NCBI GenBank assembly: GCA_963755915.1
Contig: CAVWLP010000003.1
Location: 1,152,001-1,216,000, forward strand
Source: an uncultured Phycisphaerales bacterium
Lineage (GTDB): Bacteria > Planctomycetota > Phycisphaerae > Tepidisphaerales > Tepidisphaeraceae
Direction: 5' to 3'
Length of the DNA stretch: 64,000 nucleotides
The notes beneath the pieces are model-generated. The model was not told the origin of the DNA, made no database searches, and saw only the letters and a program-made list of their open reading frames with translations. Shown here in pieces: positions 5,973 to 48,121 of the stretch. Position numbers and translations under genes: made by a program. The first letter of the stretch is position 1. Each line of letters starts with the position of its first letter.

Positions 5973-6300
5973 AAAGCCGGCCAAGGTTGTCCCCGAACTT
6001 CTGGAGCCTGGATGGACGACGGATAAAGAGCTTGGAATAAAAGTGAAAGAGACGAGCCACGGTGTAACGCGCCCGTTTTCCCCTATGAGCGCCCTTGAGC
6101 GTTCGGCGGTTAGATTGGGTCAGCGTGAACCGCCTGCAACGGACGTATTAGACCATGGTGTACTGGCAAACCGCCAGGTACGGATAGCAGGAAGAGCGTT
6201 GCCGCAATGATGGCAACAGCCCATGCAGAGCGGACACTGACAGGCCGAGCAACAGCTTAAAAAGACAAAAGAATAAAGGCGGCGAATGCGGCCCACACTT
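5973..6300 (+). ncRNA. Putative bridge/seek RNA of the IS1111-type element (boundaries approximate)
   Basis: Contains TTCCCCTA (6078-85) and CGGTTAG (6107-13), matching both strands of the reconstructed target, and ATAGCAG (6184-90), matching the circle junction; hairpins lie between the guide halves. Confidence 0.7.
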
Positions 6301-6498
6301 GACAACCAACATAGCAGGGGAAGGGAAAGAGGGTGGAGGGGGTGCGGGGGAGGCGGGAGAAAAACCTTGGGGCCTTATGGGTTGTCTCCCGCCTCCCCTG
6401 CATTGCTTTTGCATTTGTCTTCAAAAGAGCCGGCCGCTTACTCCTCGAACTCAAAAAATGTGTCGGGCGGTCAGGTACTCCGGGGGAGGGTTGGGGGC

Positions 6499-6531
6499 TC
6501 TACTGCTCCACTTTCTACTGCTCCACTTTCT
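6499..6531. repeat. 15-bp tandem duplication
   Basis: TCTACTGCTCCACTT x2 plus TCT. Confidence 0.9.
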
Positions 6532-6554
6532 CGCGTAGCGCTGGGCATTGGCGC

Positions 6555-6604
6555 GACCAAAGTAATCACTTGGCGGCTCGAACCAATACCAAAGTACTAT
6601 GGAG
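6555..6604 (+). promoter_or_regulatory. Second copy of the putative operator region, upstream of the response regulators
   Basis: GACCAAAGTA...CCAATACCAAAGTACTATGGAG aligns over ~40 bp with 1351-1396. Confidence 0.5.
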
Positions 6605-6740
6605 CTTCGCGAAAGTGTCGCATATGCTGCTTGAAATGGGTGTACTGCATAACCACCGTGTCCAGCACAACGGATTTTTTCTCGCAGTCCCGGCACTAAG
6701 ACTTGTCTCGCCAAAACAGCGGAGATCGTGAGGAATCGCA

Positions 6741-7127
6741 ATGGATAAGCGAGCACTGGTTTCCGTTGTGGATGACGATGAATCCGTTCGCGAGTCGCTC
6801 CCCGACCTGCTCGGAGAACTCGGCTTTGCCGTGAAGGCGTTTAATTCCGGCGAAGCGTTTCTCGCTTCTGAATCCTTGCAGCAGACCGAATGCCTCATCC
6901 TCGACATCGCCATGCCGGGGATGAGTGGCTTTGATGTGCAGCGGGAATTGAAAGCCCGCCGCCAGCAGATCCCAATCGTATTTATCACCGCCCACAAGGA
7001 TGCAACCGCCCGGCCGGAGGTGCTCGCAGACCACGCCGTCGCCTGCCTCTTGAAACCGTTCAGCGACACCGCCCTGCTCCAGGCGATTCGAACCGCCTTG
7101 GGATCGCCCAAAATAAATGGCACGTAA
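6741..7127 (+). CDS. Single-domain response regulator (receiver)
   Basis: VVDDDESVR, ILDIAMPGMSG, FITAH, LLKPF. Confidence 0.92.
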   Translation: MDKRALVSVVDDDESVRESLPDLLGELGFAVKAFNSGEAFLASESLQQTECLILDIAMPGMSGFDVQRELKARRQQIPIVFITAHKDATARPEVLADHAVACLLKPFSDTALLQAIRTALGSPKINGT

Positions 7128-32218: not shown

Positions 32219-34828
32219 TCAGTGAAACTGTTGGCGCGGGCTTTCGCCGACAAAACCGACGCTGCCGTCGAGCATCAGGTAGTTGACGCCCTTTTTATAT
32301 CCGGGATGAGATGTGGGCAACGCGCTGACCCAGATATCGCTCATGACCCAGGTTTTGGGGTCCATGCGGAGGTTGAGTTTTCTGGGCCACGAGACGCCGC
32401 CGCGAAGGAATTTGCTGAGGCTTGGATCGGAGCCGGCGCTCGAAGCGCCGTAATAGTAATAGCCGATGATGCCGGAGCGAAAATTCTGATCGCTATATTC
32501 GAGAGCGGGATCGCGCTGGCTTGGGCAGTAATAGGTTTGGGGGTCGCCGGTGACGTGCCCGGCGGTAAGGGCGTCGAGAAGCTCGACATGGGGATTTTCC
32601 ACGGTGGGAGAAACCGGCAAGTCGCCTCCGCTGGCGTGGGCGTAGAGAATCAGCTCGGTGCCGAGCTTACGCAGGTTGTCCTTGCAGAGAGCGAGGTTGG
32701 CTGCTTCGCGAGCGCGCTCTATCGAGGGGATGAGCATGGCGGTCGCCAGCGCGACGATTGCAATCAAAGCTAAGAGATGAATGTAGGAAAACCCTGGCCG
32801 AGACGCCGATTTTCGATCTGGACGCCTTCGCTTGAGAAAAAGCGACGATGAGCAAAGTCCAAGCAGTGCTGCGCTGACAGGTTCCGGCACATCGGCCGTC
32901 AGGCCGTTGGCGTTGGCGAAGGCGTCGAGGGCCGCCCAATCGCCGGGGATTACATCGGCATCGGCGTCGTTGTCGCCCTGACCGAAGTTTTCGGCGAGGG
33001 CGCTGAAATCGGAGCCGTTGACGGAGGAGGTGAAGAGGAAATTGCCCTGGTCCCAGTTGGTGACGCCGAGGCCAAAGTTGGCGGCAAGGATGCTGAAGTC
33101 AGAGCCGTTGACGGCGCCGTCGAGATTGGCGTCGCCGAGAAGCGTATATTTCAGCTCGATCTGGCCGGAGGATAATCCGGCGACGATGCTGTCCTTGCCA
33201 TCGGCGTAGCCTAAACCGTAGGCGTGATTGGCAGCGGCGGAGGAGATGATCCCCGTGCCGTTCCAGGCGCCGCCGTTATAGCCCGATTTGAGCAGCGCGG
33301 CGATTGAAGCGATGGGATCGGAGCCGCTGCCGTAATTGATATAAATGTGATTGTTGTTGATGTCGAGCGTGCCGCTGCCGGTGATAGCCAGGGAGTCAAC
33401 CTGGGCGAGGCCGGTTCCGGCTCCAAGTTTGAGCGTGCCACCGGAGATAGAGACGTTGCTATCGGTGGGAAGAGCGCCGTTGGCTGCTACGATGAGCGTG
33501 CCGGCGGTGACATCGGTGCCGCCGGAATAGGTATCAGCTCCGGCCAATTCGGTGACGCCGCTGCCGGCGATCGTCAGGCTAAATCCCGCGCCATCGTCGC
33601 CGACACTCGATTGAATGGTCAGGGGATTCGAAGAGTTATTGGTCCACGTTTGGCTCGCGCCCAGCAGAACGCCCGGCGTGCCGGCGATGGTGTCGCCGGT
33701 TACGTTGATCGTGTGGGCTCCCGATCCGGATTGAACGGTGATACCGCCGGAAAGAAGGGTCAGGGTATTCGCGCCGCCGACGATGACCGAATTGGTGCGG
33801 GCGGAAGTGAAGGTCAGGCTGTTGATGCTGAAGTCGGCGCCGAGCGTGGTGCTGAGAGTTCCCGCGCTGTTGCCGGTCGAGCCGAAGATGACATTGGTGA
33901 CCCTCCCGCCGGGAATTGCATGAAGGTCGGCGCCGCCGTCGGTGGCGCTCCAATTGGTGCCGGGGCTGGAGGAGGAACCGAGTTCGGTGGACCAGACCAG
34001 TCCGGCCGCGCCGGACTGAGCGCCGGACCAGTAAGCGGTCGCCGGTGGTGCGGCGGTGTAGGTGACGGTTAATTCCGGCGCGAGGGCGGGATCGTCATTT
34101 GCAGCCGCGCCTTGGGCCGACCAGAAAGCGCGGAAGGTTCTGATGTCCGTCTCATCGGCGTTCTTGATAACCCAGCCGAAATTGTTGGACGGATCATTCA
34201 GCCAGTTTTGCACATCCGTCACCATCGCGGCCGACGACCAGGTGAAACTCGCCAAGGTTCCGGTGACGCTGGCGTCGGCAATATCGGTTAATGATGAGGA
34301 CCAGTCTCCGCCGGCGATCGTCCAGGGCGTCGTGCTGTAGAAGGCGTAGTTCCAGGTGGCATCGCCCGGATCGGGCGCCGCGCCGTGCCCGGTGCCGCCG
34401 AAGGTGGTTGCGCCGGGGAAGTTGGTCGGCTGGCCCCACGCCTGCGATTCATCGAAAAGGCTGATGGTTTCCGGGCCGCTGGTTCCGCCGGAGCCACCCC
34501 CCCCGCTGCCGGCAACCTGGCCGACGGTCATTTGAAGGGTTACCCCGGTAATGGTTGCGCCGGACGGGATCGATCCGGCGATGTTGAATTCGATCAGGCC
34601 TCGTTTGGGATTGCCCTCGCCGTCGGTGCCGACAAAGATGCCCGGATCGGCGAGGCTGTTGTTGGTGGTCGCGTCCGAGCCGCCGAGGAGGGTGGCGTCT
34701 TGGGCGGCGCCGAGTTCAATCTGATCCCCTCGAGCCGATGGGGCGCGCAGCGAGAATGCGGCTATTTCCACAAGGCCAAGCGCGGCGGCGGTCACTGCGG
34801 ATTTTCCTGACCTGATACGCATTTGCAT
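32219..34828 (-). CDS. DNRLRE-like + beta-strand repeats + dockerin-like + internal PEP-CTERM, fused in frame to a prepilin/H-X9-DG domain
   Basis: Single ORF: ...DVPEPVSAALLGLCSSSLFLKRRRPDRKSASRPG|FSYIHLLALIAIVALATAMLIPSIERAREAANLALCKDNLRKLG...HPGYKKGVNYLMLDGSV. Confidence 0.85.
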   Translation of the reverse strand: MQMRIRSGKSAVTAAALGLVEIAAFSLRAPSARGDQIELGAAQDATLLGGSDATTNNSLADPGIFVGTDGEGNPKRGLIEFNIAGSIPSGATITGVTLQMTVGQVAGSGGGGSGGTSGPETISLFDESQAWGQPTNFPGATTFGGTGHGAAPDPGDATWNYAFYSTTPWTIAGGDWSSSLTDIADASVTGTLASFTWSSAAMVTDVQNWLNDPSNNFGWVIKNADETDIRTFRAFWSAQGAAANDDPALAPELTVTYTAAPPATAYWSGAQSGAAGLVWSTELGSSSSPGTNWSATDGGADLHAIPGGRVTNVIFGSTGNSAGTLSTTLGADFSINSLTFTSARTNSVIVGGANTLTLLSGGITVQSGSGAHTINVTGDTIAGTPGVLLGASQTWTNNSSNPLTIQSSVGDDGAGFSLTIAGSGVTELAGADTYSGGTDVTAGTLIVAANGALPTDSNVSISGGTLKLGAGTGLAQVDSLAITGSGTLDINNNHIYINYGSGSDPIASIAALLKSGYNGGAWNGTGIISSAAANHAYGLGYADGKDSIVAGLSSGQIELKYTLLGDANLDGAVNGSDFSILAANFGLGVTNWDQGNFLFTSSVNGSDFSALAENFGQGDNDADADVIPGDWAALDAFANANGLTADVPEPVSAALLGLCSSSLFLKRRRPDRKSASRPGFSYIHLLALIAIVALATAMLIPSIERAREAANLALCKDNLRKLGTELILYAHASGGDLPVSPTVENPHVELLDALTAGHVTGDPQTYYCPSQRDPALEYSDQNFRSGIIGYYYYGASSAGSDPSLSKFLRGGVSWPRKLNLRMDPKTWVMSDIWVSALPTSHPGYKKGVNYLMLDGSVGFVGESPRQQFH

Positions 34829-34831
34829 GCG

Positions 34832-35680
34832 TCAGTTTGCCATTCGTCGCTGCCGGCGGCAAAGCAAAATCGGAGCAACCGCGCCGAGCAGCGAAAGACT
34901 GACCGGCTCCGGGACGGTATAGGTGATGGCCAGGTCCGGCTCAAATCCGTTATTGGCGTTTGTCGCTCCCTGCGTTCCCCAGAATCCTAAAAAGCTCTGG
35001 GCACTCGACGAATCGGCATTGAGGATAGCCAACCCATTGTTGGAAGATGGCGTGTTAACCCATCCCTGCACTTCCGCAATCAGCGCCGACGACGACCACT
35101 GAACTTCCGCACTGTCTGTTCCCTCGATGCCCGAGGTGGTCGCGAGCGCGACTGAGGTTCCGGTTATGTTGGCGGGCATTCCGCTGCTCCAGGCCGTCGC
35201 GAGAGAGGGCATTGAGTTGTAAGCAGCGTCGTTCCAGGTGGCGTCGCCCGGATCAGCCCCAAAGCCCTGCCCATGGCCGCCGAATGTGGTGGAACCCACT
35301 TCGTTGGTCGAAGCGCCCCACGCCTGAGATTCATCATAAAGACTGATTGTTCGCGTAGGCCCGGAATCCACGACATTGCTCCCACCGCTTCCGGCGACCA
35401 TGCCGATGTAGAGATCGAGCGTTGCCCCCGTGATGGTGGCGTACGATGGAATTGACGAGATATTGAAGGCCATCAAACCGATTTTGAATGAAGTATTTGA
35501 ATCGGTGCCCACAAAAATTCCCGGATCGCCCAGACTATTCGTCAGGTCGCCTTGAAAAAGCGTGTCGTCGCCCGTCGAAGGGGCGTTGTCGAGAATATCC
35601 GCCCGCGCCGATGAGACGCAGATCGCGGAGACATTGACGCAAACAGCGACAAATAAAATTTTCGTCAGGTTCATTCTCAT
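34832..35680 (-). CDS. DNRLRE-like domain PEP-CTERM protein
   Basis: Signal peptide; paralogous to the N-terminus of 32219-34828 (NSL.DPGIFVGTD, DESQAWG, DPGDATWN); VPEPVSLSLLG...RRQRR. Confidence 0.85.
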   Translation of the reverse strand: MRMNLTKILFVAVCVNVSAICVSSARADILDNAPSTGDDTLFQGDLTNSLGDPGIFVGTDSNTSFKIGLMAFNISSIPSYATITGATLDLYIGMVAGSGGSNVVDSGPTRTISLYDESQAWGASTNEVGSTTFGGHGQGFGADPGDATWNDAAYNSMPSLATAWSSGMPANITGTSVALATTSGIEGTDSAEVQWSSSALIAEVQGWVNTPSSNNGLAILNADSSSAQSFLGFWGTQGATNANNGFEPDLAITYTVPEPVSLSLLGAVAPILLCRRQRRMAN

Positions 35681-35725
35681 GTGCATTCTCCTTTTCCTTA
35701 AAAGCTCCAATTGGAGGGTTGGTGT

Positions 35726-36475
35726 TTACTGAGCGCTGTTCCAGGTACTTCCTGGCGGCAGCCAGCGAACGTCGGCATGCTCGATGACGCCCGTGCCGCA
35801 ACCGATATAGGCGGCGGGAATCGCGGCGACATGTCCGTCGAGAAAACAGATGTTTACGGAATTGTTGTTGTGGCGCGGGACGGGGTTGTATCCGCCGGCC
35901 GTTTTTGACGGATAGACCGAACAGTAATTCCCAGGCCCATCCGCGAACAGCACCATGGTGGCGGTGCTGCCTACGGCGGTGATCTTGTTGGGTTGCCCGT
36001 TGTTCTGATTTGCTTCCCAGACGGAAAGCGCCATGTTCATCCCGAACGACCAGTAGTATGTGCCGGGCATGTCCACGGCCTGAGGGCAGATCCAGACGGA
36101 ACGATCCGGCGGACGCGGAATTGCGTTTGTCGACGCCAGCGTTTTCACCGTTGGGTCGGCGTCTCCATACTCCGGCAGCTTCATCAGCGGAGGCAGCGCG
36201 TTAAACCAATCCGTCGGCCGATTGATGATGCCGGTCGGACCAACCCCCTGGCCGCGGCGGGGAAGAAACCCATTGTTTTCGTTGGCGTACAGCGCCGTTG
36301 CGATGGCCCACTGGCGGAAATTCGACTGGCACGTGATCCCCCCCACGCTTCGCCGGGCCAGTGTCAGCGTCGGCAGCAGCAGACCCATGAGGATCGCCAC
36401 GATGCCGATTACCACCAGCAACTCGACGAGCGTAAAACCCGCGGAGCGATTGTTGTTACCGTGGATAGGATCCAT
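35726..36475 (-). CDS. Prepilin-type / H-X9-DG protein
   Basis: [17 protein letters not shown]..., CQSNFRQ, RHNNNSVNICFLDGHV. Confidence 0.9.
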   Translation of the reverse strand: MDPIHGNNNRSAGFTLVELLVVIGIVAILMGLLLPTLTLARRSVGGITCQSNFRQWAIATALYANENNGFLPRRGQGVGPTGIINRPTDWFNALPPLMKLPEYGDADPTVKTLASTNAIPRPPDRSVWICPQAVDMPGTYYWSFGMNMALSVWEANQNNGQPNKITAVGSTATMVLFADGPGNYCSVYPSKTAGGYNPVPRHNNNSVNICFLDGHVAAIPAAYIGCGTGVIEHADVRWLPPGSTWNSAQ

Positions 36476-36701: not shown

Positions 36702-38090
36702 TCAGTTAGGGGGAAGCTGCTGCCAACGAGGCCTTGGCGTGAATTGCCGGCGGTAGGCGGTAGGGGTGGTGCCGGTGGACTGGAGGAAGCTGGTGGCCAT
36801 GTATTCGGGGGTGGCGAAGCCGCTTTGGCGGGCGACTTCGTAGACGGGTAAATCGGTCTGGAGGAGGACCTTGGCGCGCTCCAGGCGGATGCGGCGGATT
36901 TCTTCGAGGGGGGTGTGGCCCAGGACGCTCACGAACCGCCGCTCGAGGGTGCGGCGGTTGACGGGGACTTCATCTAATAGCTGTTTCACCGATAGTCCTT
37001 CGACCGCGTGGCGGCGGATGTGGCGCAGGGCGGCGGCTACGTCGGGGTCGTCTACGGCTAATACGTCCGTGGATTGGCGGGTGACGACTTCGATCGGGGG
37101 GACGCGCTTGATGGTCGCGGGGACTTTGCGGCGCATGATCATTTGATCCAGCAGGTGGACGGCGATCCGGCCGATCTGCTCGGCGCCGATGCGGATGCTG
37201 GAGAGGGGCGGATGGGCGATTTCGCAGAGGAGAGCTTCGTCGTCTACGCCGAGGATGGCGATGTCTTCGGGAACCTGGAGGCCGACTTCGCGGGCGGCCT
37301 GGAGGAGCTCGAAGCCCCAGGTGTCGCTGGTGGAGAAGAGAGCGAGGGGACGGGGCAGGGAGAGGAGCCAGTTGCCCATGGCGGCGGCGCGGCGCTGGTT
37401 GGGGGCGTCGAGGGCGGCGCTGGCGGCGTCGGGGGCGGAGCCGTAGCTGGAGAAGGTGAAAGGTTTGGGGTTGTCGTCGTGATTGACGTCGGCGCGATTG
37501 GTTTGGGCGCGATTGGTCTCCGCGCGGGCGCGGAAGGTTTTTTCGATTTCGGTGCGGAATCCGGTTTCGCGTTCGCGGGACCAGAGCATTCCGGGTGCAC
37601 CGAAGTAGGCGAAGTGGCGGAAGCCGCGCTCGAGGAAATGGCGGGCGGCGAGCTGGCCGGTGGCGACGTCGTCGGGAAGGATGCGGGGGAATTCGGATTT
37701 GGCGCGGCTTTCGAAAACTTCGACGACGGGTTTCTTGGTTTCGCGGTAAACCTTGGCGAGGCGGTCGTCGTAGATCTGGCAGATGATTCCGTCGGGGTTC
37801 CAGTCTTTAAACCATCGGGCGAGGTACTTGCTGGAGTGGCCGTAGATTCCGCGGTAAACGCGGAAGAGCCAGGGATTGTCGCGGCGTTTTTTGGGAGTGG
37901 GCGCGGTGGCGGGCGCGGCGGCGGCGGTGGCGGAATACATGTTTCGTTCGCGGGTGGCGGCGATGATTCCGCGGAGGACGCCCCGGGCGTAGGCGTATTC
38001 GGTGGGGAGGACGACGGCGATATGGACGAATTTGGGTGGGGTGGGGCCGGGCACGAAGGGGGATTTTACCTTGAGGATGACTTGTCGCAA
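36702..38090 (-). CDS. XylR-type regulator (periplasmic-binding-protein-like domain + AraC HTH)
   Basis: YARGVLRGI, AARHFLERGFRHFAY, VPEDIAILGVDD, PPLSSI, VTRQSTD, RRTLERRF...IRRIRLERAK; start uncertain. Confidence 0.92.
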   Translation of the reverse strand: MRQVILKVKSPFVPGPTPPKFVHIAVVLPTEYAYARGVLRGIIAATRERNMYSATAAAAPATAPTPKKRRDNPWLFRVYRGIYGHSSKYLARWFKDWNPDGIICQIYDDRLAKVYRETKKPVVEVFESRAKSEFPRILPDDVATGQLAARHFLERGFRHFAYFGAPGMLWSRERETGFRTEIEKTFRARAETNRAQTNRADVNHDDNPKPFTFSSYGSAPDAASAALDAPNQRRAAAMGNWLLSLPRPLALFSTSDTWGFELLQAAREVGLQVPEDIAILGVDDEALLCEIAHPPLSSIRIGAEQIGRIAVHLLDQMIMRRKVPATIKRVPPIEVVTRQSTDVLAVDDPDVAAALRHIRRHAVEGLSVKQLLDEVPVNRRTLERRFVSVLGHTPLEEIRRIRLERAKVLLQTDLPVYEVARQSGFATPEYMATSFLQSTGTTPTAYRRQFTPRPRWQQLPPN

Positions 38091-39225: not shown

Positions 39226-41198
39226 GTAGAGTAGAGAACTGAACGACCCGATTGCCGCTCAGCTCTCCCTCTTCGAACCGGACGAGCGGGTTTCCCGCAT
39301 CCGGCTCTCACGGTATTGTTCTTCTCAAGCATTCACGGTCGGAACAGGTCGCAGGCTGATGAGGCCCAGACGCTGCAACTGTTCGTACCAGCTCCTCGCT
39401 CCGCGCACACGGAACGGACGCTGGCTGCGACGTTTAAGGTGTCGTTCCAGTCGCTCCTGCACAAATCGGTTGATCTGACGGAACGCCTTGCGCGGATAGC
39501 CTTTGCCGAAGTAGTTGGCCCATCCTCTCAGGTGCTCGTTGATCTGTACGATCAACGCCGGGATGGGCACAAAGCCTGCTTCGGGTCCGGTCATCTCCCG
39601 CAATTTGTCCCGCTCACGCTGCATCGACTTGCTCGAAGGACAGAGGTTCAGATAACGCCCCGGCCCGCCTTGCAGGCTCCGGTCGTACCGGAACCTGTAC
39701 CCGAGAAAGTTCAGACTTTCGCCCGGCTCTTTCAACTTCACCGTGCGGGTCTTGTCGGTGTTGATCGTCAGATCAAACCGGCCTTGCAGCGTGCGTTCCA
39801 CGAACTGCTTGATCTGAGGGCCTATATACCTTGCCATGATGACAAAGTCGTCGGCGTACCGGATCAGCCGGGCGTTCGCCCAGCGATGCGGGCCATCGGA
39901 TCGGTGGAACAATTTATCAAACCAGTGCAGATATAGGTTGGCCAGCAGCGGCGAGATCACTCCGCCCTGCGGCGTTCCCTGTTTGCTCCGGGTGACTTTC
40001 GGTGGATCGCCGGGCTTCTCGCCTTCTTCGACGATCACCGCCTTCAGCCACATCCGGATCAGCTTCAGCACGCTTCCGTCCGTGATCCGCTTCTGGACAC
40101 ACGCCATCAGTTTCTCATGGGGAATCGTGTCGAAGTACGACTGCAAATCCGCGTCATACACTTCCCTTCGGCCCTGCTGGAGGTTTTGCTTGATCGCCTC
40201 CAGCGCATCGTGAGCCGAGCGACCGGGACGGAATCCATACGAACAGTCCAGGAAATCCGCCTCGAAGATCGGCTCGATGAGCAGCAGCACCGCCATCTGC
40301 ACCACGCGATCTCGGATCGTGGGGATGCCCAATGGACGCCGCTTGCCGTTGGCTTTGGGAATGTACACGCGCTTCACCGGCTGCGGGCGGTAGGTGCGGG
40401 TCTTGAGCGATTCTTCGATCTCGCTCAGGAATCCACTGACGCCGTGCTCGGAGTTTTGCACCTTCTCGATGCTCACCCCGTCCAAGCCGGGCGCCCCGCC
40501 GTTGGCGGACACCCGGTCCCACGCCGCTTCCAGAACATCGCGCCGGCAGATCCGGTCGTACAAGGTGTAAAACCGAAACCCCGGTTCCCGCTTGGCTTTG
40601 AGGTATAGCTTCTGTCTCAGAAGAAAGACTTTCCCCGGCAGACCCCTGGAGTTCACCCTCAGGTGCTCCGGCAAGTCTGTCGGATCATCCGTACTGTCAG
40701 GTTGTCCCTGCAAGCGGGCCTCTCTTCTTCTTACTTCCGCTCGATACCGTCAGGGCTCCTTGGCTCGCGGCAGGCTTCGCCTCCGCTCACGGGCATTACC
40801 CCGCTTCTCAGCTACTATGAGCCCATCCGACTCCCCACGCTTCCCGTCCCTTGGTTATGTCTTTCCAACGAGCCGCACAACGATGCGTGGGGTCTCTCAG
40901 TTCCCGATCTTGTCTGTCGGCACGCGCCGTCCCCATCGACCCCGAGGAGCCGGACGATTGCTCGCACCCGCTGCTTCATCGTCCGCGCCGGCTTGGCCCT
41001 CTCTGACGGGTTGGCCACTCCCATTGGCGTAACGAGGCTGGTTTGGGTTCGCTTAACGCTACGGCTCGCGCCTTCGCCTTCCGGGGCTTCGCGCGACCGA
41101 TTGCTCCGTCGTCACGCCCGGGCGGCTACACGGCTAACGGGTCATTCCATGGTGAACTCCTTTCAGTTCACAAGACAAAACCGGTTTCACTGACGCAC
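39226..41198 (-). mobile_element. Group II intron, complete (~1.97 kb)
   Basis: 5' GTGCG at 41198; domain V GAGCCGGATGCGGGAAACCCGCTCGTCCGGTTC; domain VI ending CTCTAC at 39226; flanks rejoin into one palindrome. Confidence 0.9.
39325..40713 (-). CDS. ltrA: Group II intron reverse transcriptase/maturase, no endonuclease domain
   Basis: [56 protein letters not shown]. Confidence 0.95.
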
Positions 41199-41276: not shown

Positions 41277-42434
41277 ATGCGTGTAAGATTGGGCTTCGTA
41301 TTGGTGGGACTATTGGTGTTGGGATGTGGTGATTCATTGTGCGCGGATTCGAGCTTGCCGGCGGGCGGGTTTTTGCTGGGGGCGGATATTTCGGCGCTGG
41401 GGCAGTTGGAGGGACGCGGGACGGTGTTCAGCGACGGGGGGAAAAATGAGGATGCCATCGCGATCTTCCGGCGGCATGGGTGGAACTGCTTTCGACTGAG
41501 ACTGTTTGTGAATCCGAACGGGCGCGGGGGGACGGTGAATACGCTGGAATATACGCGGGCACTGGCAAAGAGGATTCGGGGGGTGGGGGCGACGTTTATC
41601 CTGGATATTCATTATTCGGATACCTGGGCCGACCCGCAGCACCAGGTGAAGCCGGCGGCGTGGAAGAATTTGAGCTTTGAGGAGCTGCAGGGGGCGGTGG
41701 AGAAATATACGGCGGATGTGCTGGGGGATTTGAAGAAGAATGATGCGCTGCCGCAGATCGTTCAGGTTGGGAATGAGATTACCGGGGGAACGCTTTGGCC
41801 GGATGGGCAGGTGAGGGTGCCGGTTTCGACGGTGAAGGTGTATGACGCGACGGTAAAGCCGGTGAAGGTGACGGAGCCTTATGATGATGCGGCGCAGTGG
41901 GACCGGTTTTGCAGAATACTTCGCGCGGGGATTCGAGGGGTGAGGGAAGCGACAGTTTCGGCGGATGGGGTGAGGGTGATGATTCATATCGACTGCGGAG
42001 GGGATTGGCCGGTGACGAAATGGTTCTTCGATCATCTGCGCGAGCACCAGGTTGATTATGACATTATCGGGCAGAGTTATTACCCGTACTGGCATGGGAC
42101 GCTGGAAAATGTGCGGGAGAATTTGCGGGAGACGGCGCTGCGGTATCAGAAGGATATCGTGATCGTGGAGACGGCTTATCCGTGGAAGGATGCGGGGAGA
42201 TGGGCGTCGCGGAAGAATATGGCTTGGGGGATTTCGGCGCAGGGGCAGATGCAATTTATGCATGATCTTATTTCAGCGGTGCGGGAGACGCCGGGGGGAC
42301 ATGGGACGGGGGTGATTTACTGGCATCCGGAATCGATGGCAATTCCGAATAGGACGGGGGTGCAGTGGAATGGGGGGGATATGGCTTTGTTTGATGAGAA
42401 GGGGGTTGCGTTGCCGGCGTTGGTTGATGAATAG
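41277..42434 (+). CDS. GH53 endo-beta-1,4-galactanase
   Basis: GADIS, RLRLFVNP, DIHYSDTWADP, QVGNEI, SYYPYWHG, VETAYP, YWHPE. Confidence 0.93.
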   Translation: MRVRLGFVLVGLLVLGCGDSLCADSSLPAGGFLLGADISALGQLEGRGTVFSDGGKNEDAIAIFRRHGWNCFRLRLFVNPNGRGGTVNTLEYTRALAKRIRGVGATFILDIHYSDTWADPQHQVKPAAWKNLSFEELQGAVEKYTADVLGDLKKNDALPQIVQVGNEITGGTLWPDGQVRVPVSTVKVYDATVKPVKVTEPYDDAAQWDRFCRILRAGIRGVREATVSADGVRVMIHIDCGGDWPVTKWFFDHLREHQVDYDIIGQSYYPYWHGTLENVRENLRETALRYQKDIVIVETAYPWKDAGRWASRKNMAWGISAQGQMQFMHDLISAVRETPGGHGTGVIYWHPESMAIPNRTGVQWNGGDMALFDEKGVALPALVDE

Positions 42435-42470
42435 CGTGGACCTATTTAACGCGGAGAATTTTTTTACACG

Positions 42471-42511
42471 GCCCTCACCCCGGCCCTCTCCCGGAGTACC
42501 GGGCGAGGGGG
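42471..42511. repeat. Long REP palindrome family; copies at 48070-48110, 60022-60062, 63924-63964, degenerate 38134-38173, and split and inverted at 4635-4651/6475-6498
   Basis: GCCCTCACCCC(T/G)GCCCTCTCCCGGAGTACCGGGAGAGGGGG consensus. Confidence 0.9.
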
Positions 42512-44961
42512 AAGGAGGGGGAGTGGTTTTCGGTGGTGGGGATTTCGAGGTGGGCGGGGGTTAGGGCGAAGGCGGTGGCTTTGAGGGTGATTTTTCCGGG
42601 GCGTTTGCCGGACTGGAGAAGGATGGTGGCGATGCCGGCTTCGGTGGGTGCGGGGTTGGGGCCGATTAATTTGGCGTCGCCGGTGACGGAGAATTCGACG
42701 GATTCGTCGGAGAGGGGGCAGGGGGTGCCGCGGGCGTCGAGGATGTTGGCGTGGAGGCGGATCCAGTCGGAGCCGTCGGCGGTGAGGGTTTTGCCGCAGA
42801 AATCGGGGCGAAGCTCAAGGGCGCGAGGGCGCCGGGGGGATGGACGACGTGGGAGGCGACGACGATGCCGCCGGTGATTCCTTCGGCGAGGACTTCAAGC
42901 GGGGGGTTTTCTACGCGGGCTACGCCGGTCATATACATGGTGGATTGTTCGTGGGCGAAGCAATCGACGTGGAAGGTGAAAGGGGGATGGGGGATGGACC
43001 AGCCGGGGTCGGGGCGTTTGCGGGCGATTTCGCGGCCGTCGACGCAGAGGCGGACTTCGTCGCAGTTGCTGAAGACGGTGACGGTTGTGGGAGAGAGGAA
43101 AGTGGCGTAGTTGGCGATGAAGACCATGGGGCCGTCGCTGAGGCCGGGGACGTGGATTTCGGGGGCGCTGGCTTTGGAAAAAGTAGTAGCTGAATTTGGG
43201 GAGGCGGAAGAGGTCGAGGACGCCGCCGAAGAAGGGCTGGCGATGGTAGCCGCGCTGGCAGTCGATGCCGGCCCAGAGGTTGGCGCCACCGAGGCGATTG
43301 AAGTCGGCACCGCGGGCGTGGTTGCAGCGGCCGGAGATGATTTCGTCGAGGCGCGAGGCGTGGGAGGTTGCCTGGATGAGGAGCGGGGTTTCGCCCCAGG
43401 CGCGGGGGACTCGGCTGCGGGATTGCTGGTCGGACCAGTTGTCGACGTGGTCGCCCCACTCGCGGATCCAGGTTGGTTTTGTACCGTCGCCGCGAAGGTA
43501 GTCGACGTCCCAGGCTTGGCCGTCTTTTTCGCGATCGCCGGCGGTGAAGCACTGGTCGCCGGGATATTCTTCGTGGATGGCCTGCTGGAGGCGGGGGAGG
43601 ATTGGGCGGTTGTCGGATTCGTTGAGCGCGGCTTCCCAGAGGATGACAGAGGGGTGATTGCGGTCGCGGCGGACCATAAGCCGGGCGTTGGCGACGGCGC
43701 GGTCCTGGAATTTCTCCCCACCGACGAATTGCCAGCCGGGGTTGGAGACGATGGCGAGCATGCCGAGCTCGTCGCAGGCGTCGAGGAAGGAGACGGCCTG
43801 GGGGTAGTGGCTGCGGTAGGAAGTGAAGCCGGCCTCGCGGAGTTTTTTGACGTCGCGGTATTGGGCGCTGTCGGGCATGGCGTAGCCGACAAAGGGATGG
43901 TCCTGGTGACGGTTGGCGCCAATGGAAAAGATTTTTTTGTCGTTGATGAGGAGGCCCTGCTTGGGGTCGAAACAGATTCGGCGGATTCCGATGCGGGTGG
44001 AGATTTCGTCGACGGGAGCGCCGTTGCCGAAGACGCGGGTTTTGAGGGTGTGGAGATGCGGGTGATGCGGGTGCCAGAGGCGCGGGGTCGTGACTTCGAT
44101 GTTGTGGACGAAGGTGGAGTCGGACTGCGGCTCGATGGCGCGGGCGGAGGCGGCGCGGGCGACGAGTCGGCCGGTGGGGTCGAGAAGTTCCTGGACGACG
44201 AGGCAGTGTTTCGATTCCGGGGATTGGTTGCGGACGTCGGTTTTGATTTCGACGGCGGCGGAGTGTTCGGAGACGCGCGGAAAGGTGACGAAGACCCCCC
44301 CACCGGCGACGCGCTGATCGAGGATTGCGTCGGAAATGTGCAGCGGGTCCATGACTTCGAGGCGGACGTTGCGGTAGAGGCCGCCGAAGTAGGTGAAATC
44401 GAGTTCGTGCTGGAGCTTGCCGGGAGGGACGTCGGGGTTGTCGCGATTGTCGAGGCGGACGGCGAGGCGATTGGCGGTGGGACCAAAATCGAGCTCACGC
44501 GTGAGGTCGATGGCGAAGGGGAGGTAGCCGCAGTGGTTGGTGGCGATTTTGCGGCCGTTTAACCAGACATCGGCGACCTGCATGGCGCCTTCGAAATTGA
44601 GATAGATGATGCGGCCTTTCCATTCGGGAGGAATGTTCAGCTCGCGGAAATAGCAGCAGATTCCCTGGAAATTTCGGCCGCCGCTGGCGTTGAGAGGCTC
44701 AATGCGGACGGAATGGGGGAGATTGACCTGCTCCCAATCGGAGGATTGCAAAGAGTCGACGGCGGCGAAATCGTGGGACTGTGCATCGCGCTCGAATCTC
44801 CGGAAGCGCCAATCCTGATTGAGGGAGAAGACGAGGCGCGGGGCGGACGCGTTGGCGACGGCGAGAGCTTCGAGGGTTTTGTCGAGACGACGAACGACGG
44901 GAAGCTTTTTGCGCGGCGCGGCCGGCTTTCGGCGGGAGACATCGCTGAGGGATCTGGCCAA
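42475..44961 (-). CDS. GH2 beta-galactosidase-like (frameshifts near 43160 and 42830)
   Basis: FEGAMQ, GYLPF, YFGGLYR, GANRHQD, RSHYP, RDRNHPSVILWE..LNE; shifted frames give FSNCDEVRL and ADGSDW; the last frame reads into the REP and stops at 42475. Confidence 0.88.
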
Positions 44962-44964
44962 GGT

Positions 44965-46086
44965 TCAGCTCCCGTTCTGTCCATAGGAATCGAGCGCCGG
45001 GAGCGCGTTGCCCGCCTGGTCGAATAATGCTTCGTAGCCATGTCTCCAGACGTGCGGAAGGCCCGGGGCGGGAATTGCTTCGGGATACCAGTATATAAAT
45101 CCGATGCCGTGGTTTCCAGGCGCGGCTTTGAGGGCGGCGGTCAGATCGTGCAGGTATTGCTTCTGGCCATCGGGGGTCTGGGGCCACTGGAGGGTGGCGA
45201 GGCCAATTTTGTCGGGGAGGGCTTTCCAGGGGTAACTGGTTTCGGCGAGGACCACGTCTTTACCACTAATGGAGACGGCGTCGATGAGGTTCTGCTTCAG
45301 GACGTCGAAGGAATCGTTCCAGGCGGGGTAGAAGCTGAGGCCGAGGATGTCGTAGTCGGCGGGGTCGATTTTGAATTTGCCGAGGAAATATTTGGCCATG
45401 CCTTCCAGGCCACCACCGTGGATGTGGATGACAATACGGATGGGGTGCTCGGGGGTTTGGGCTTCGCGGACGGCTTTGCAGCCGGCGTCGACAAGCTGGG
45501 CAAAATGATTCCAGTGGAGGTCTTCAGTGCCGGGTGGGACATCGAGGACCTGGCCCTGTGGCCAGAGCATGCCGGCGGTGATTTCGTTGCCAACCTGGAC
45601 CCAGTCGGGCGGGGTGCCGGCGGCGGCGAGGGTTTTGAGGACGTTGGCAGTGTAGTCGTGAACTTTCTGGCGGAGGTCGTCGAAATTCAGGTTCTTCCAG
45701 TGCTCGGGGGTAAATTGCTTGCCGGGGTCGGCCCAGGTGTCGGAGTAGTGGATATCGAGGAGGAAAAGGGCGCCGGTGCCCTTGATGCGGCCGGCGAGGC
45801 CGCGGACGTAATTGAGGTCCTGGACGGCGCCGTCGGTTTTGGCGTAGGAGGGGTTGGGGTTGACGAAGAGCCGGACGCGGAAGAGGTTGCAGCCGCCCGA
45901 GCGCATGATCTGGAGGGCGTCGCCGGGATGGTTGTGATCGCGGAAGACAGCGCCGGAGGTTTCGAGGGTGGGGAGCATGGAGATGTCGGCGCCGGTGATG
46001 AAGGATTGGTCGGCGGCGCCGGCGGATTGGGATAGCAGCAAGCCGCAGAGAATTGTCGGGATGACGTGAGCGAGTCTCATGGGCAT
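44965..46086 (-). CDS. GH53 endo-beta-1,4-galactanase
   Basis: Signal peptide, GADIS, DIHYSDTWADPGKQ, QVGNEI, AETSYP, YWYPE. Confidence 0.93.
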   Translation of the reverse strand: MPMRLAHVIPTILCGLLLSQSAGAADQSFITGADISMLPTLETSGAVFRDHNHPGDALQIMRSGGCNLFRVRLFVNPNPSYAKTDGAVQDLNYVRGLAGRIKGTGALFLLDIHYSDTWADPGKQFTPEHWKNLNFDDLRQKVHDYTANVLKTLAAAGTPPDWVQVGNEITAGMLWPQGQVLDVPPGTEDLHWNHFAQLVDAGCKAVREAQTPEHPIRIVIHIHGGGLEGMAKYFLGKFKIDPADYDILGLSFYPAWNDSFDVLKQNLIDAVSISGKDVVLAETSYPWKALPDKIGLATLQWPQTPDGQKQYLHDLTAALKAAPGNHGIGFIYWYPEAIPAPGLPHVWRHGYEALFDQAGNALPALDSYGQNGS

Positions 46087-46089
46087 GTC

Positions 46090-46604
46090 TTAGTAAACAA
46101 AAAGCTGGTCGACAACCGACCCATCGGGAGATTTAATCGAGAACACGTCATTTGCGCGGGTCGGCGTATGGCAGCCAATCGTTATTCGGCCGGGGACGCT
46201 TTACCATCATGCCCGATTCGATAAACCATCGCTCGTGGAGCAAACCCACAGTATTGGGCGGTTGTCCTTTGGACTGAGCGTCGGCGAAGGCTGCCTCCAA
46301 CCGTTTTTTTGCGTCTGGGTTGTATTTGGCCAGATAGGCGCAGAATGATTTATCTCCGTTGTCGTAGGTATAGACTTCGGCAATCACGGCGGTTTTACCG
46401 TTATGATCGAATGGCGCGACTTTATAGGTGCTATCCTCGAACCAGGTCTGGCCATCATCATCAGAATAATAGGTCATGGCGATATTTGGTTTTTTCTGAG
46501 GCCAGAATTGAAAGGCGAGAGAGACCGCGGCAACAAGAATCAAGCCGCAGCCGATGGCGACGGACAACCCCTTTCGGACCCCTAAGAGCGCTGCGAATAA
46601 ACAT
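46090..46604 (-). CDS. Single-TM hypothetical protein following the pilin-like gene (probable frameshifts near 46570 and 46157)
   Basis: Core ORF 46148-46567 (YYSDDDGQTWF...PFDHNGK.AV.A.VY); ATG at 46604 and tail NDVFSIKSPDGSVVDQLFVY* lie in adjacent frames. Confidence 0.65.
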
Positions 46605-46614
46605 AAATCGCCGA

Positions 46615-47625
46615 TTACTTTGGATTCAGGCAGATGTCCTGGGCGACCACTGTGCCCAAAGCCCTACTCTCCACATGTCCGTCACCGAAAAGGAAATTGG
46701 CTGAAGTGTTGTTCAGGTGACGAAACCGCATGTTGCAGGTTGCAAAACCGAACTGTCCGTTCCAGGTGTTGTTGGAGTAGTCGGAGTTTGCTAATTGCAG
46801 GTAGGATTTTGTCACGGTTCCAGCGGTGATGCTGCTGGCCTTGGATCCCGGGTACCAGGTGGGGTCGCCGAGGGAAATCGGATTGCTGTAATCGGCGGGC
46901 GTAAATTGAGAGGGAACCGCTGGATTGGGATAGCATAATCCATGCCCGTCTGTCGCCTGATAATTATCGACCGTGCCAGAATAGACGGGGGTGCAACCGA
47001 AATTAGTACCCTGACCCAGATTGCATGCACCACACCACATCACCATCACCTGGGCCGGATGCCGGATAGAGGTGAATTTTCGCACCGGATAGGTGACGAG
47101 GCCTGATGGGGTGCCGACCGCGGCTGAATATCCACCGAAGTAAGGATCCCAGAGTTGCGACTGGTTATTCAATATCCCAAACGCTCTTGCGTTCGCAACG
47201 TAGGCGGTGGCGTGGGCATACCAGGGCTCACCGCCCACATCAAGGTCCTGAAATACGGCTGAGTCCTGTGCGGGCTCAAGCATATAGGCATAGGTCTGGG
47301 ACGTGGCAGTAATCGGCGTGGTTGGCTGTTGCGGAAAGCCCGGAGGCGGCGGATTGGTTTTGTTGTTGAGAAGGGTCAGGGTATCCGCGTAGGTTGTGTA
47401 GTAGTAGCCGTCATATGCTGCTGGACCATATCCCTGATTCTCGTTGACATAAATCAGGAGCATCTGTCCGATGGTTCGCAGATTCGATTGACACTCGAGG
47501 GAATTCGCCTGCTGCCGGGCCTTTTGCAGGGCCGGCAGGAGAACCGAGATCAGCAGGGCAATAATGCCGATGACCACCAGGAGTTCAACCAGTGTGAAAC
47601 CCTCTGCCGACCTCGCTCGCCGCAT
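46615..47625 (-). CDS. Prepilin-type / H-X9-DG protein
   Basis: [55 protein letters not shown]. Confidence 0.92.
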
Positions 47626-47675
47626 GGGACGCTCCTGTTCAAGATGGACGAAGTGCCTTACCCTCATTGCGGTTA

Positions 47676-47740
47676 ATTTTACCTCGTCGGAAACCGGGTA
47701 ATATCTATAACTGCGAATAATCTCTTCAACTTTGCGACAG
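47676..47740 (-). promoter_or_regulatory. Tandem operator + -10 element, site 2
   Basis: Minus strand CTGTCGCAAAGTTGAAGAGATTATTCGCAGTTATAGA; TAAAAT at offset +59. Confidence 0.7.
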
Positions 47741-48121
47741 GGGCGGGGGCGGAAATTCGAAACTGGAAACTCGGAGGCCCGGACGCCTCCGGGGCGTACT
47801 CGCCGATTGCGGCGCCAGATGATCCATTGGGCCGTCCGCGGCTCCGACGAATAAAACTTGAAATTCGAAAGAACACCGTGGAACTCCTTTTGATCTTTTC
47901 GTCATTTGGTCGTCCGTATTTGATACGAATTTCGCTCTTTCGAAGTTTTGGTTTCATATTGCGGGGGTGGCGCGGGGAGGGGTTTTGTTCGCAATTGCGG
48001 GCGGTGGTGGAAGAGAATTGATGTCGTGATGATCCGGCAGAATCGCGGGTGGTCCGAGATTTTTTCACGGCCCTCACCCCTGCCCTCTCCCGGAGTACCG
48101 GGAGAGGGGGTAGGAGGGGGT

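What the first reader, a model, noticed from the sequence alone, without database searches (positions are those of the whole stretch)
32219..34828. PEP-CTERM surface protein that continues in frame into a pilin-like protein: an apparent polyprotein cut by two membrane peptidases
Seen: the ORF does not stop after VPEP-TM-KRRR (32890 onward). The basic tail runs straight into G|FSYIHLLALIAIV...ERAREAA...C.DNLR.LG and ends in an H-X-DG motif, giving a ~190-aa mature domain from 32791. There is no ATG or RBS between the two parts, so a lost stop codon between two genes is not an easy explanation. Known: PEP-CTERM is normally the extreme C-terminus and is cut by exosortase; prepilin peptidase cuts G|F after a basic cytoplasmic leader. 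Inference: the PEP-CTERM cytoplasmic tail doubles as the prepilin leader, so one translation gives a surface protein and a pilin 1:1. Position +5 is His rather than Glu; E5-lacking pilins (GspK/PilX type) are tip or initiating subunits. This would physically link two large unexplained planctomycete families.
Basis: partly seen in the sequence, partly recalled or inferred. Interest (0 to 1): 0.85.

Follow-up and report, generated by a model that had tools for sequence, protein, structure and literature searches.

The report
PEP-CTERM surface protein fused to pilin-like protein
One gene in a soil planctomycete joins a sugar-binding-type surface protein to a pilus-subunit-like protein that relatives encode as two neighbouring genes, tying together two large protein families of unknown function.

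Summary
Window 32219-34828 (-) is one 869-aa ORF: signal peptide, DNRLRE (CBM96-like) domain, beta-strand repeats, dockerin-like repeats, VPEP-TM-KRRR, a 9-residue basic linker, then G|FSYIH and a 190-aa pilin-fold domain. Short-read contigs from two runs bridge the junction with no difference.

It is a derived fusion. The pilin-like part has 127 standalone ~200-aa relatives. A PEP-CTERM gene ends just upstream in 12 of 13 metagenome loci. The tree puts the window and the other fused relative, P0003, in separate supported clades, so there were two fusions.

The architecture recurs:
- a second fusion in this genome;
- 24 of the 150 best representative proteins;
- one fused clade kept across two genera (SH-aLRT 99).

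PilD-type peptidase and exosortases are encoded.

Best reading: a two-helix membrane hairpin resolved by exosortase and/or prepilin peptidase into the usual two products. Cleavage is inferred, not shown.

This scan noted a similar fusion on other DNA (e1-743326). My searches of the held paper library found no description.

The parts
32219..34828 (-). Fused ORF, 869 aa: PEP-CTERM surface protein continuing into a pilin-like domain
   Evidence: junction bridged by short-read contigs
34730..34828 (-). Probable Sec signal peptide (aa 1-33, MQMRIRSGK + hydrophobic stretch + ...ARG|DQ). The ATG lies 3 nt after the stop of the upstream gene.
   Evidence: read from the sequence; no predictor was run; inference
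34061..34699 (-). DNRLRE domain (aa 44-256), related to carbohydrate-binding module family CBM96
   Evidence: NCBIfam NF033679 41.5 bits, cut-off 34. Homologues P0350 and P0393 hit Pfam CBM96 at about 26 bits, cut-off 26. The window's own domain does not hit CBM96.
33488..33580 (-). Autotransporter-associated beta-strand repeat (aa 417-447)
   Evidence: TIGR02601 22.6 bits, cut-off 19.85. Pfam PATR 25 bits, below its cut-off of 27.
32981..33136 (-). Two dockerin-like repeats (aa 565-616, GDANLDGAVNGSDF... / ...VNGSDFSALAENFG)
   Evidence: read from the sequence. Relatives P0003-P0005 carry precomputed PF00404. The window's own repeats gave no Pfam hit.
32819..32890 (-). Internal PEP-CTERM sorting signal (aa 647-670: VPEP, 15-aa hydrophobic stretch, KRRR)
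   Evidence: TIGR02595 15.8 bits, cut-off 16. The same stretch is terminal in P0005.
32795..32821 (-). Basic linker PDRKSASRP (aa 670-678), with no in-frame start codon. Its end is homologous to the leader peptide of standalone relatives.
   Evidence: leader of P0156 ...FSASRP|GFSYVH
32789..32794 (-). G679|F680, putative prepilin-peptidase site (Gly at -1, Phe at +1; His at +5)
   Evidence: Gly or Ala at -1 in most standalone relatives read. Cleavage not shown.
32723..32791 (-). Hydrophobic N-terminal helix of the pilin-like part (aa 680-702), the second membrane helix of the hairpin
   Evidence: Kyte-Doolittle mean up to 2.19. The AF2 helix covers model residues 6-56.
32222..32794 (-). Pilin-fold domain of the short DUF1559 / H-X9-DG-type family (aa 679-869)
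   Evidence: 127 relatives. AF2 pLDDT 92.3. 20 of the top 21 VIA-align rows are type IV pilins or pseudopilins, Z 5.6-3.5.
32258..32308 (-). HPGYKKGVNYLMLDGSV: H-X12-DG variant of the H-X9-DG C-terminal motif
   Evidence: TIGR04294 12.8 bits, below its cut-off of 19
34832..35710 (-). Upstream paralogue: short DNRLRE protein with a normal terminal PEP-CTERM (292 aa)
35726..36475 (-). Standalone pilin-like gene with canonical GFTLVELL (Glu at +5) and an H-X9-DG-like end (249 aa). First gene of the conserved three-gene cassette.
   Evidence: Pfam N_methyl 32.8 bits; TIGR02532 22.3 bits; cassette seen in 5 of 11 loci examined
36702..38090 (-). AraC-type regulator with a periplasmic-binding-protein-like sugar-sensor domain, directly upstream on the same strand
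   Evidence: Peripla_BP_3 115.7 bits and HTH_18 74.6 bits

Best explanation
This is a real, recently formed gene fusion inside a conserved, probably sugar-regulated cassette. The cassette is: a pilin-like gene with Glu5, then a DNRLRE/CBM96-like PEP-CTERM surface-protein gene, then a short pilin-like gene lacking Glu5. In the window the last two genes have become one ORF, through loss of the stop, the start and part of the leader.

Inferred mechanism:
1. The Sec signal exports the passenger.
2. The PEP-CTERM helix stops transfer, with its KRRR tail in the cytoplasm.
3. The pilin helix re-inserts (N-in, C-out). Both large domains end up outside the membrane on a two-helix hairpin.
4. Exosortase, acting at the PEP motif on the outer face, and/or PilD-type prepilin peptidase, acting after Gly679 on the cytoplasmic face, separate the two halves.
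5. The products are the same two mature proteins as in the two-gene form.

Because the two sorting signals are topologically compatible, such fusions are tolerated and arise repeatedly. They mark the PEP-CTERM protein and its pilin-like neighbour as working together, plausibly in glycan capture.

Shown: the ORF, its origin from two genes, recurrence, long retention in a sister family, and the presence of the enzymes.
Inferred: topology, cleavage and function.
For: Real ORF:
-.

Origin from a gene pair:
- 127 standalone relatives up to 81% identical.
- A PEP-CTERM gene ends just upstream in 12 of 13 metagenome loci, and in G011, G014, G104 and G105.
- The linker end matches the leader of the closest standalone relative.
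- The window sits in a 97 SH-aLRT clade with standalone proteins. P0003 sits in another clade (95). That gives two fusions in this family.

Recurrence:
- A second fusion in this genome with canonical GFTLVELL.
- 24 of the 150 best representatives, plus P0022 read by eye. Linkers are 4-47 aa, -1 is Gly in 20 and Ala in 4, and only 4 linkers contain Met.

Stability:
- In the second family the 5 fused sequences (G000, G001, P0006, G011, G014) form one clade, SH-aLRT 99.
- Their pilin parts have diverged to 61-65% identity and their linkers differ.
- All keep PEP, the helix, the Arg cluster, [GA]F and Glu5.

Selection:
- dN/dS is 0.12-0.21 against standalone relatives.

Enzymes:
- 3 exosortase loci over the cut-off.
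- A24_N_bact at 130 bits in the same 400-aa frame as a Peptidase_A24 match.

Established knowledge (Pelicic 2023, PMC10191384, passages read):
- Leaders vary in length and end in Gly or Ala.
- The peptidase cuts at the cytoplasmic face.
- Glu5 pairs with a free N-terminal amine. Its retention after fusion therefore argues for cleavage.

Context:
- AraC/sugar-sensor regulator, and GH53 x2 and GH2 nearby.
Against: - No direct evidence of cleavage, topology or expression.
- In this family fusion is rare (2 fused against 127 standalone) and the window's is young, so it could be a tolerated or mildly harmful accident.
- dS is about 1-1.4, and dN/dS averages over both lineages, so it says little about the time since fusion.
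- The window's site lacks Glu5. A few standalone relatives lack Gly/Ala at -1 (P0193 has W, P0227 has R), so processing in this subfamily may be relaxed.
- The window's motifs score below curated cut-offs: PEP_CTERM 15.8 vs 16, SBP_bac_10 18.3 vs 23.3, and no N_methyl hit.
- The first helix is short and only weakly hydrophobic (19-residue mean about 0.96).
- Whether a prepilin peptidase accepts a 'leader' that carries a helix and a 650-aa domain is untested. I found no paper on it (listing only).
- A shallow phylum-wide sample found no fusion in the 400 other genomes (11 candidates scored per genome).
Confidence: 0.6

Rival explanations
1. Uncleaved hairpin protein. The fusion stays in one piece, anchored by two helices, and the pilin-like domain acts in cis beside the passenger as a fixed partner and not as a filament subunit.
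For: - His at +5 in place of Glu.
- Some standalone relatives lack Gly/Ala at -1, which suggests this subfamily may work as a membrane-anchored protein without processing.
- The topology is the same as in the best explanation.
Against: - Gly at -1 and Phe at +1 are kept in the window and in P0003, while the linker around them is unrelated.
- In the long-lived fused clade, Glu5 and [GA]F are all retained.
- An exosortase substrate is expected to lose its helix and tail. This is recalled from the exosortase/archaeosortase literature and was not checked in the passages I read.
Confidence: 0.2
2. A recent disabling accident. A deletion fused two genes, the pilin-like half is now trapped and non-functional, and the gene is on its way to loss or to being split again.
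For: - Fusion is rare in this family (2 against 127).
- The window's nearest relatives are standalone.
- The other fused gene of this genome carries a frameshift at a poly-G run relative to P0006.
- Six split pairs in this genome are all in frame with the PEP-CTERM gene, three of them with a single stop. That would fit a flux between fused and split states.
Against: - The ORF is intact through its normal ...SPRQQFH end.
- There is an independent fusion in the same family (P0003).
- A fused clade has been retained across two genera.
- There are 24 fused representative clusters.
Confidence: 0.15
3. Assembly or sequencing artefact, or two genes read as one. A missed stop or indel, or internal initiation, gives a separate pilin-like protein.
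For: The assembly has few contigs, and at least one probable homopolymer frameshift exists elsewhere.
Against: - Two short-read contigs bridge 32606-32972 with no difference, and no indels were listed.
- There is no in-frame ATG, GTG or TTG in the linker.
- Fused relatives exist in independent assemblies.
Confidence: 0.03

Closest known systems
PEP-CTERM / exosortase (EpsH) protein-sorting system (Haft et al. 2006, PMC1569441; passages read)
   Same: A VPEP motif, a hydrophobic helix and an Arg-rich tail follow a secreted passenger. Exosortase homologues are present in the genome. The passenger types (DNRLRE, beta-strand repeats, dockerin-like) are the usual ones.
   Different: The signal is internal: 199 residues follow the basic cluster. 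[quoted passage not shown] Here the tail is a specific, conserved pilin-like domain.
Class III (prepilin) signal peptides of type IV pilins and T2SS pseudopilins, processed by PilD/GspO (Pelicic 2023, PMC10191384; passages read)
   Same: A basic stretch ends in Gly, followed by Phe and a ~22-residue hydrophobic helix and then a pilin-fold head. A PilD-type enzyme is encoded. Known tip complexes are capped by a subunit lacking Glu5.
   Different: The 'leader' is not N-terminal. It is preceded by a membrane helix and a 650-aa exported domain. Glu5 is His. The window gives no N_methyl/TIGR02532 hit.
DUF1559 (PF07596, 'SBP_bac_10') / H-X9-DG (TIGR04294) prepilin-type paralogue families of Planctomycetota and other PVC bacteria
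   Same: Sequence relatives carry PF07596 and are named 'prepilin-type processing-associated H-X9-DG protein' by JGI. They share the CxxNLRxxG and ...DGSV motifs.
   Different: This is a short (~190 aa) subfamily with H-X12-DG and His/Gln at +5. Here it is fused behind a PEP-CTERM protein. The T. immobilis proteome paper (PMC8567305, passages read) notes only that such genes are often flanked by genes with signal peptides; the term PEP-CTERM does not occur in its main text.
Modular type IV pilins such as Streptococcus sanguinis PilB (PMC8179133; seen only as a search listing and abstract start)
   Same: A pilin moiety and a functional, adhesive-type module lie in one polypeptide.
   Different: There the module is grafted C-terminally and stays on the pilin. 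Here the extra module is N-terminal, has its own sorting signal, and is expected to be cut off.

Membership tests
PEP-CTERM sorting domain (TIGR02595 / PF07589) | PEP motif, hydrophobic helix and basic cluster recognised by the family model | tested here: inconclusive
   TIGR02595 15.8 bits against a cut-off of 16; no PF07589 hit at E<=0.1. The motif VPEP + 15 hydrophobic residues + KRRR is plain in the sequence, and the homologous stretch is terminal in P0005.
PEP-CTERM sorting domain (TIGR02595 / PF07589) | Located at the extreme C-terminus (median 3 extra residues; Haft 2006) | tested here: not met
   199 residues follow KRRR.
PEP-CTERM sorting domain (TIGR02595 / PF07589) | Exosortase (EpsH family) encoded in the same genome | tested here: met
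   PF09721 over the cut-off at 3 loci, 165.7, 151.7 and 112 bits.
PEP-CTERM sorting domain (TIGR02595 / PF07589) | Cleavage or transfer by exosortase | not testable with these tools
   Needs biochemistry.
Prepilin-type N-terminal cleavage/methylation domain (TIGR02532 / PF07963) | Model match: Gly/Ala at -1, Phe at +1, Glu at +5, hydrophobic helix | tested here: not met
   No hit at E<=0.1. Gly-1, Phe+1 and the helix are present, but +5 is His. Deep-branching relatives (P0264, P0266, P0269) carry PF07963 and GF[ST]LVE. The other fused family's P0006 has an internal N_methyl hit of 25.3 bits.
Prepilin-type N-terminal cleavage/methylation domain (TIGR02532 / PF07963) | Signal at the N-terminus of the precursor | tested here: not met
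   It starts at residue 679 of 869.
Prepilin-type N-terminal cleavage/methylation domain (TIGR02532 / PF07963) | Prepilin peptidase encoded in the genome | tested here: met
   Peptidase_A24 75.5 bits at C2:4768023. A24_N_bact 130.1 bits, plus a weak A24 match, lie in one 400-aa frame at C3:690918-691922.
DUF1559 / H-X9-DG pilin-like family (PF07596, TIGR04294) | Family model match | tested here: inconclusive
   PF07596 18.3 bits (cut-off 23.3) and TIGR04294 12.8 bits (cut-off 19). Many close relatives carry precomputed PF07596 and the JGI H-X9-DG name.
DUF1559 / H-X9-DG pilin-like family (PF07596, TIGR04294) | Type IV pilin fold (long N-terminal helix packed on a beta-sheet head) | tested here: met
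   AF2 pLDDT 92.3, pTM 0.84, helix 6-56 followed by strands. VIA-align: 20 of the top 21 rows are pilins or pseudopilins (PilA4 Z 5.6, rmsd 3.4, 120 aligned; EpsG Z 5.2, rmsd 3.3, 95 aligned). The Z values are modest. Foldseek found nothing at E<=0.001.

The most novel reading that the evidence does not exclude
PVC bacteria make self-resolving envelope polyproteins. The cytoplasmic Arg tail of a PEP-CTERM signal doubles as the n-region of the next signal, which is a prepilin signal here and a Sec signal in chains such as P0009 and G011:C2. One translation product is then cut by exosortase on the outer face and by prepilin or signal peptidase, yielding several mature envelope proteins. The pilin-like partner lacking Glu5 would be the tip subunit of a short pseudopilus that presents or exports its cognate sugar-binding PEP-CTERM protein. 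That would give the huge DUF1559 family a role as dedicated partners of surface glycan-capture proteins.
Probability: 0.25. Interest if true: 0.85.

Novelty: new variant of a known kind. Interest (0 to 1): 0.7.

Why it matters
PEP-CTERM proteins and DUF1559/H-X9-DG pilin-like proteins are two of the largest unexplained protein sets in Planctomycetota and their relatives. This genome has about 163 of the first and about 61 of the second.

This work shows three things:
- They form conserved adjacent gene pairs. In two related genomes, 14 of 30 pilin-like loci have a PEP-CTERM gene ending upstream.
- The pairs fuse repeatedly.
- One fusion has been kept across genera.

Together these are Rosetta-stone evidence that the two families work together.

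The fused proteins are also natural test substrates. A single construct can show whether exosortase and prepilin peptidase act on the same polypeptide, and whether an internal PEP-CTERM signal is functional. Haft et al. 2006 suggested that PEP-CTERM signals with long tails may be non-functional.

The cassette sits behind a sugar-sensor regulator, near galactan-degrading enzymes, and carries a CBM96-like domain. That gives a concrete hypothesis to test: glycan capture.

Tried and rejected
- **Complex prediction**: DNRLRE domain (A3, residues 34-258) against the pilin-like head (A2, residues 28-193). The verdict was 'no answer' (score 0.00, mark 0.32). This is not evidence either way.
- **Expression**: no RNA holder was listed for the stretch, so there is no information on expression.
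Sources and taxa of the fused representatives are therefore unknown.
- **Foldseek against PDB**: no match at E<=0.001. VIA-align was used instead.
- **In-frame bias idea**: all 6 split PEP-CTERM/pilin pairs of this genome are in frame (by chance (1/3)^6). This did not generalise:
  - G023+G024: 4 in frame, 10 out.
  - Five other genomes: 0 in, 2 out.
  - The window's family: 1 in, 11 out among metagenome loci.
  - The second family: 4 in, 8 out.
  I therefore dropped a general read-through or fission model.
- **Internal initiation**: rejected for the window, because the linker has no start codon.
- **Phylum-wide search**: shallow, with 11 candidates scored per genome. It cannot give a frequency.
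- **ESM Atlas**: a 51-member cluster of ~717-aa proteins with SBP_bac_10 and N_methyl scored 0.85. This is a lead only.
- **Literature**: searches returned no paper describing a PEP-CTERM/prepilin fusion or gene pair. Subscription journals and supplements were not seen.
Full report
**1. The observation**

Window 32219-34828 (-) is one open frame of 869 codons.

Family scans give, in order along the protein:
- a DNRLRE domain at aa 44-256 (41.5 bits, cut-off 34);
- an autotransporter-associated beta-strand repeat at aa 417-447;
- a PEP-CTERM match at aa 647-670, just under its cut-off (15.8 against 16);
- weak DUF1559 and H-X9-DG matches at the very end.

Reading the sequence gives VPEP (647-650), a 15-residue hydrophobic stretch, KRRR (666-669) and the linker PDRKSASRP. 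Then come G679|F680-SYIH, a 22-residue hydrophobic helix, CKDNLRK and HPGYKKGVNYLMLDGSV. The last motif is H-X12-DG, not H-X9-DG. No in-frame ATG, GTG or TTG lies in the linker.

Contigs of short-read runs X2 (32689-32972) and X3 (32606-32914) bridge the junction with no difference, and no indel was listed. These runs are from one study and may be the assembly's own sample. They exclude an assembly error, no more.

**2. A second case in the same genome, and specificity**

A scan of the whole genome (G000) found a second ORF at C2:2587061-2588899. There, LPEP-helix-RRKR is followed after 12 residues by canonical [12 protein letters not shown] and a 287-aa pilin-like part. Its N-terminal region is frameshifted at a poly-G run relative to the intact 861-aa relative P0006.

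The genome has 163 ORFs ending in a PEP-CTERM motif, against 1 in a reversed control. It has 61 pilin N-terminal profile hits. Only 2 PEP-CTERM-like motifs are internal, and both are followed by a pilin-like domain.

**3. Where the window's fusion came from**

The pilin-like part (P0001) has 127 relatives of 106-338 aa at E<=1e-5 among 330 candidates. They are up to 81% identical, nearly all ~200 aa, and many are named 'prepilin-type processing-associated H-X9-DG protein' by JGI. Among proteins of 477-1521 aa, only the window's own product, P0003 (814 aa, 58% identity, same architecture), P0004 and P0005 matched.

Upstream of the standalone relatives, a PEP-CTERM gene ends within a few dozen bases:
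- In 12 of 13 metagenome loci read. One is in frame and 11 are out of frame. L110/L111, L117/L118 and L120/L121 are near-duplicates.
- In G011 (in frame, one TAG), G105 (in frame, one TAA), and G014 and G104 (out of frame).

The upstream gene is usually a ~280-aa DNRLRE protein. 258 such proteins were found at E<=1e-10, many with the same longest-contig length as a pilin-like hit. In some loci (L112, L107, L110, G011) it is a long form with dockerin-like repeats.

L112 has the window's exact layout, unfused: a 288-aa PEP-CTERM gene, a 684-aa DNRLRE PEP-CTERM gene, then the pilin-like gene. Its two genes are in different frames. Judging from the two frames printed, the stop of the first lies within a few bases of the likely ATG of the second. 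I did not read the DNA there.

The end of the window's linker (SASRP|GFSY) matches the leader of P0156 (MNYPRSITVTPFSASRP|GFSYVH). The fusion therefore removed the stop, the start and the first part of the leader.

A tree of 114 rows was built with quick IQ-TREE and SH-aLRT support; the careful search did not finish, and rows under 170 aa were dropped. It places the window in a clade of 5 (support 97) with standalone P0157, P0158, P0166 and P0205. It places P0003 in a clade of 4 (support 95) with standalone P0203, P0209 and P0215. Starred branches force two changes of state. The family therefore had two independent fusions, and the window's is young.

**4. How general the architecture is**

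A profile of four junctions (A1) was run against 1.84 billion representative proteins. It returned 342,910 hits at E<=0.001, mostly plain pilin-like proteins. Of the best 150, 24 have a PEP-CTERM-like motif within 110 residues upstream of an internal pilin motif; P0022 makes 25 by eye.

Features of these 24:
- Linkers are 4-47 aa and Arg-rich.
- Position -1 is Gly in 20 and Ala in 4.
- Position +5 is Glu in all 24. The regex allowed E, Q or H there, and the profile favours canonical sites.
- Only 4 linkers contain Met.
- The passengers are diverse.

Gene pairs are far commoner than fusions:
- G000: 6 split and 2 fused among 61 pilin-like sites.
- G023+G024: 14 of 30 pilin-like loci with at least 600 nt of upstream sequence.
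- Five other genomes: 2 of 26.

A shallow phylum-wide sample (400 other genomes, 11 candidates scored per genome) found no further fusion at E<=1e-24.

**5. Is a fusion viable?**

The second family answers this. Its fused members are G000, G001, P0006, G011 and G014.
- Their pilin parts are only 61-65% identical between the three lineages.
- Their linkers differ: RASLRVAAKRG (11 aa, with a 9-residue in-frame insertion in G001), QRK (3 aa) and PLAR (4 aa).
- All keep PEP, the helix, the Arg cluster, [GA]F and Glu5.

Relatives of this family occur in 35 of 121 genomes sampled from the taxonomic family. Of the 18 loci with upstream sequence, 13 have a PEP-CTERM gene upstream: 1 fused, 4 in frame and 8 out of frame.

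In a 23-row tree the five fused rows form one clade with SH-aLRT 99 (quick method). That is one fusion kept across two genera.

G014 is an unpublished genome. The claim that the clade spans a second genus rests on it. The public representative P0028 shows the same junction.

For the window's own domain, dN/dS against six standalone relatives is 0.12-0.21. With dS at about 1-1.4 this is a weak statement.

**6. Mechanism**

The pilin-like part folds with confidence (pLDDT 92.3) as a 50-residue helix on a beta-sheet head. Against 48,161 chains, 20 of the top 21 rows are type IV pilins or pseudopilins. The best are PilA4 (Z 5.6, rmsd 3.4, 120 aligned) and EpsG (Z 5.2, rmsd 3.3, 95 aligned). These Z values are modest.

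The genome encodes three exosortase homologues. It also encodes a PilD-type enzyme with both a methylase and a peptidase domain, and a second A24 peptidase.

Pelicic 2023 (passages read) states the following:
- Leaders vary in length and end in Gly or Ala.
- The peptidase cuts at the cytoplasmic face.
- Glu5 pairs with the free N-terminal amine of a neighbouring subunit.
- Tip complexes are capped by a subunit lacking Glu5.

The PEP-CTERM tail is cytoplasmic and basic, as a prepilin leader must be. The two helices can therefore form a hairpin, and either enzyme alone would separate the halves. Retention of Glu5 and [GA]F after fusion in the second family argues that a free N-terminus is still made.

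None of this was observed directly. I put about 0.6 on 'functional and proteolytically resolved'.

**7. Context and function**

The fusion is the last gene of a tight same-strand cassette:
- an AraC regulator with a sugar-sensor domain (36702-38090);
- a Glu5 pilin-like gene (35726-36475);
- a short DNRLRE PEP-CTERM paralogue (34832-35710);
- the fusion, whose ATG lies 3 nt after the preceding stop.

The trio 'Glu5 pilin-like gene, DNRLRE PEP-CTERM gene, short non-Glu5 pilin-like gene' recurs in 5 of 11 loci examined. DNRLRE homologues reach Pfam CBM96 at its cut-off. GH53 x2, GH2, another pilin-like gene and another PEP-CTERM gene lie within 15 kb. Glycan capture is a reasonable inference, but it is untested.

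**8. Comparison with what is known, and novelty**

Haft 2006 (passages read) treats PEP-CTERM signals with long tails as rare and possibly non-functional. The T. immobilis proteome paper (passages read) notes only that DUF1559 genes are often flanked by genes with signal peptides.

Searches found no description of the fusion or the pair in the held library. I did not see supplements or subscription journals.

Earlier notes of this scan report such pairs and one fusion on other DNA. They agree with my reading but are not independent evidence.

I class this as a new variant of known kinds. Interest is 0.7.

Noticed in passing
protein P0009, not in the window: A 2500-aa representative protein is a chain of about ten modules. 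Each ends in xPEP-helix-RRRR and is followed directly by what reads as the signal peptide of the next module. This is a polyprotein-like concatenation of PEP-CTERM proteins.
   Followed up: no
L137 (G011:C2:993500-998500) and P0028: One open frame (1218 aa in G011; 906 aa in P0028) holds a first PEP-CTERM-like module, a signal-peptide-like stretch, a second passenger, a second PEP-CTERM and then the pilin-like domain. In G000 and P0006 the first module is a separate gene.
   Followed up: partly
L017:4310-5173 / 5065-6903 (G000:C2:~2587060): The second fused gene of this genome is split by a frameshift at a poly-G run (...NWNGGGG...) relative to the intact relative P0006. This could be a homopolymer assembly error, a pseudogene or a slippage site.
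   Followed up: no
G000:C2 near 73867, 3277042, 3445693, 3654853, 4160665 and 4279230: All six split PEP-CTERM/pilin-like pairs of this genome have the pilin-like gene in the same frame as the PEP-CTERM gene. Three have a single stop between them. No such bias appears in the relatives sampled. Unexplained, possibly chance.
   Followed up: partly
window 39325-40713 (-): A group II intron-type reverse transcriptase/maturase ORF (RVT_1 116.8 bits, GIIM 51.7 bits) lies between the PEP-CTERM genes and the GH53 genes.
   Followed up: no
window 41277-48374: A galactan-type locus: GH53 (41277-42434 +), GH2 (42895-44961 -), GH53 (44965-46086 -), an N_methyl pilin-like gene (46615-47667 -) and a 231-aa ORF with no Pfam hit (47679-48374 -). 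It resembles a locus noted by this scan in another phylum (e1-5145551).
   Followed up: partly
loci L020, L022, L023 and L025 (G010, G002, G003, G008): Another PEP-CTERM/pilin-like pair is conserved across four species of the genus, with TAA immediately followed by ATG (...RKRREA*MIW...RAFTLIELL). Ala, not Gly, is at -1 in many pilin-like genes of this lineage.
   Followed up: no
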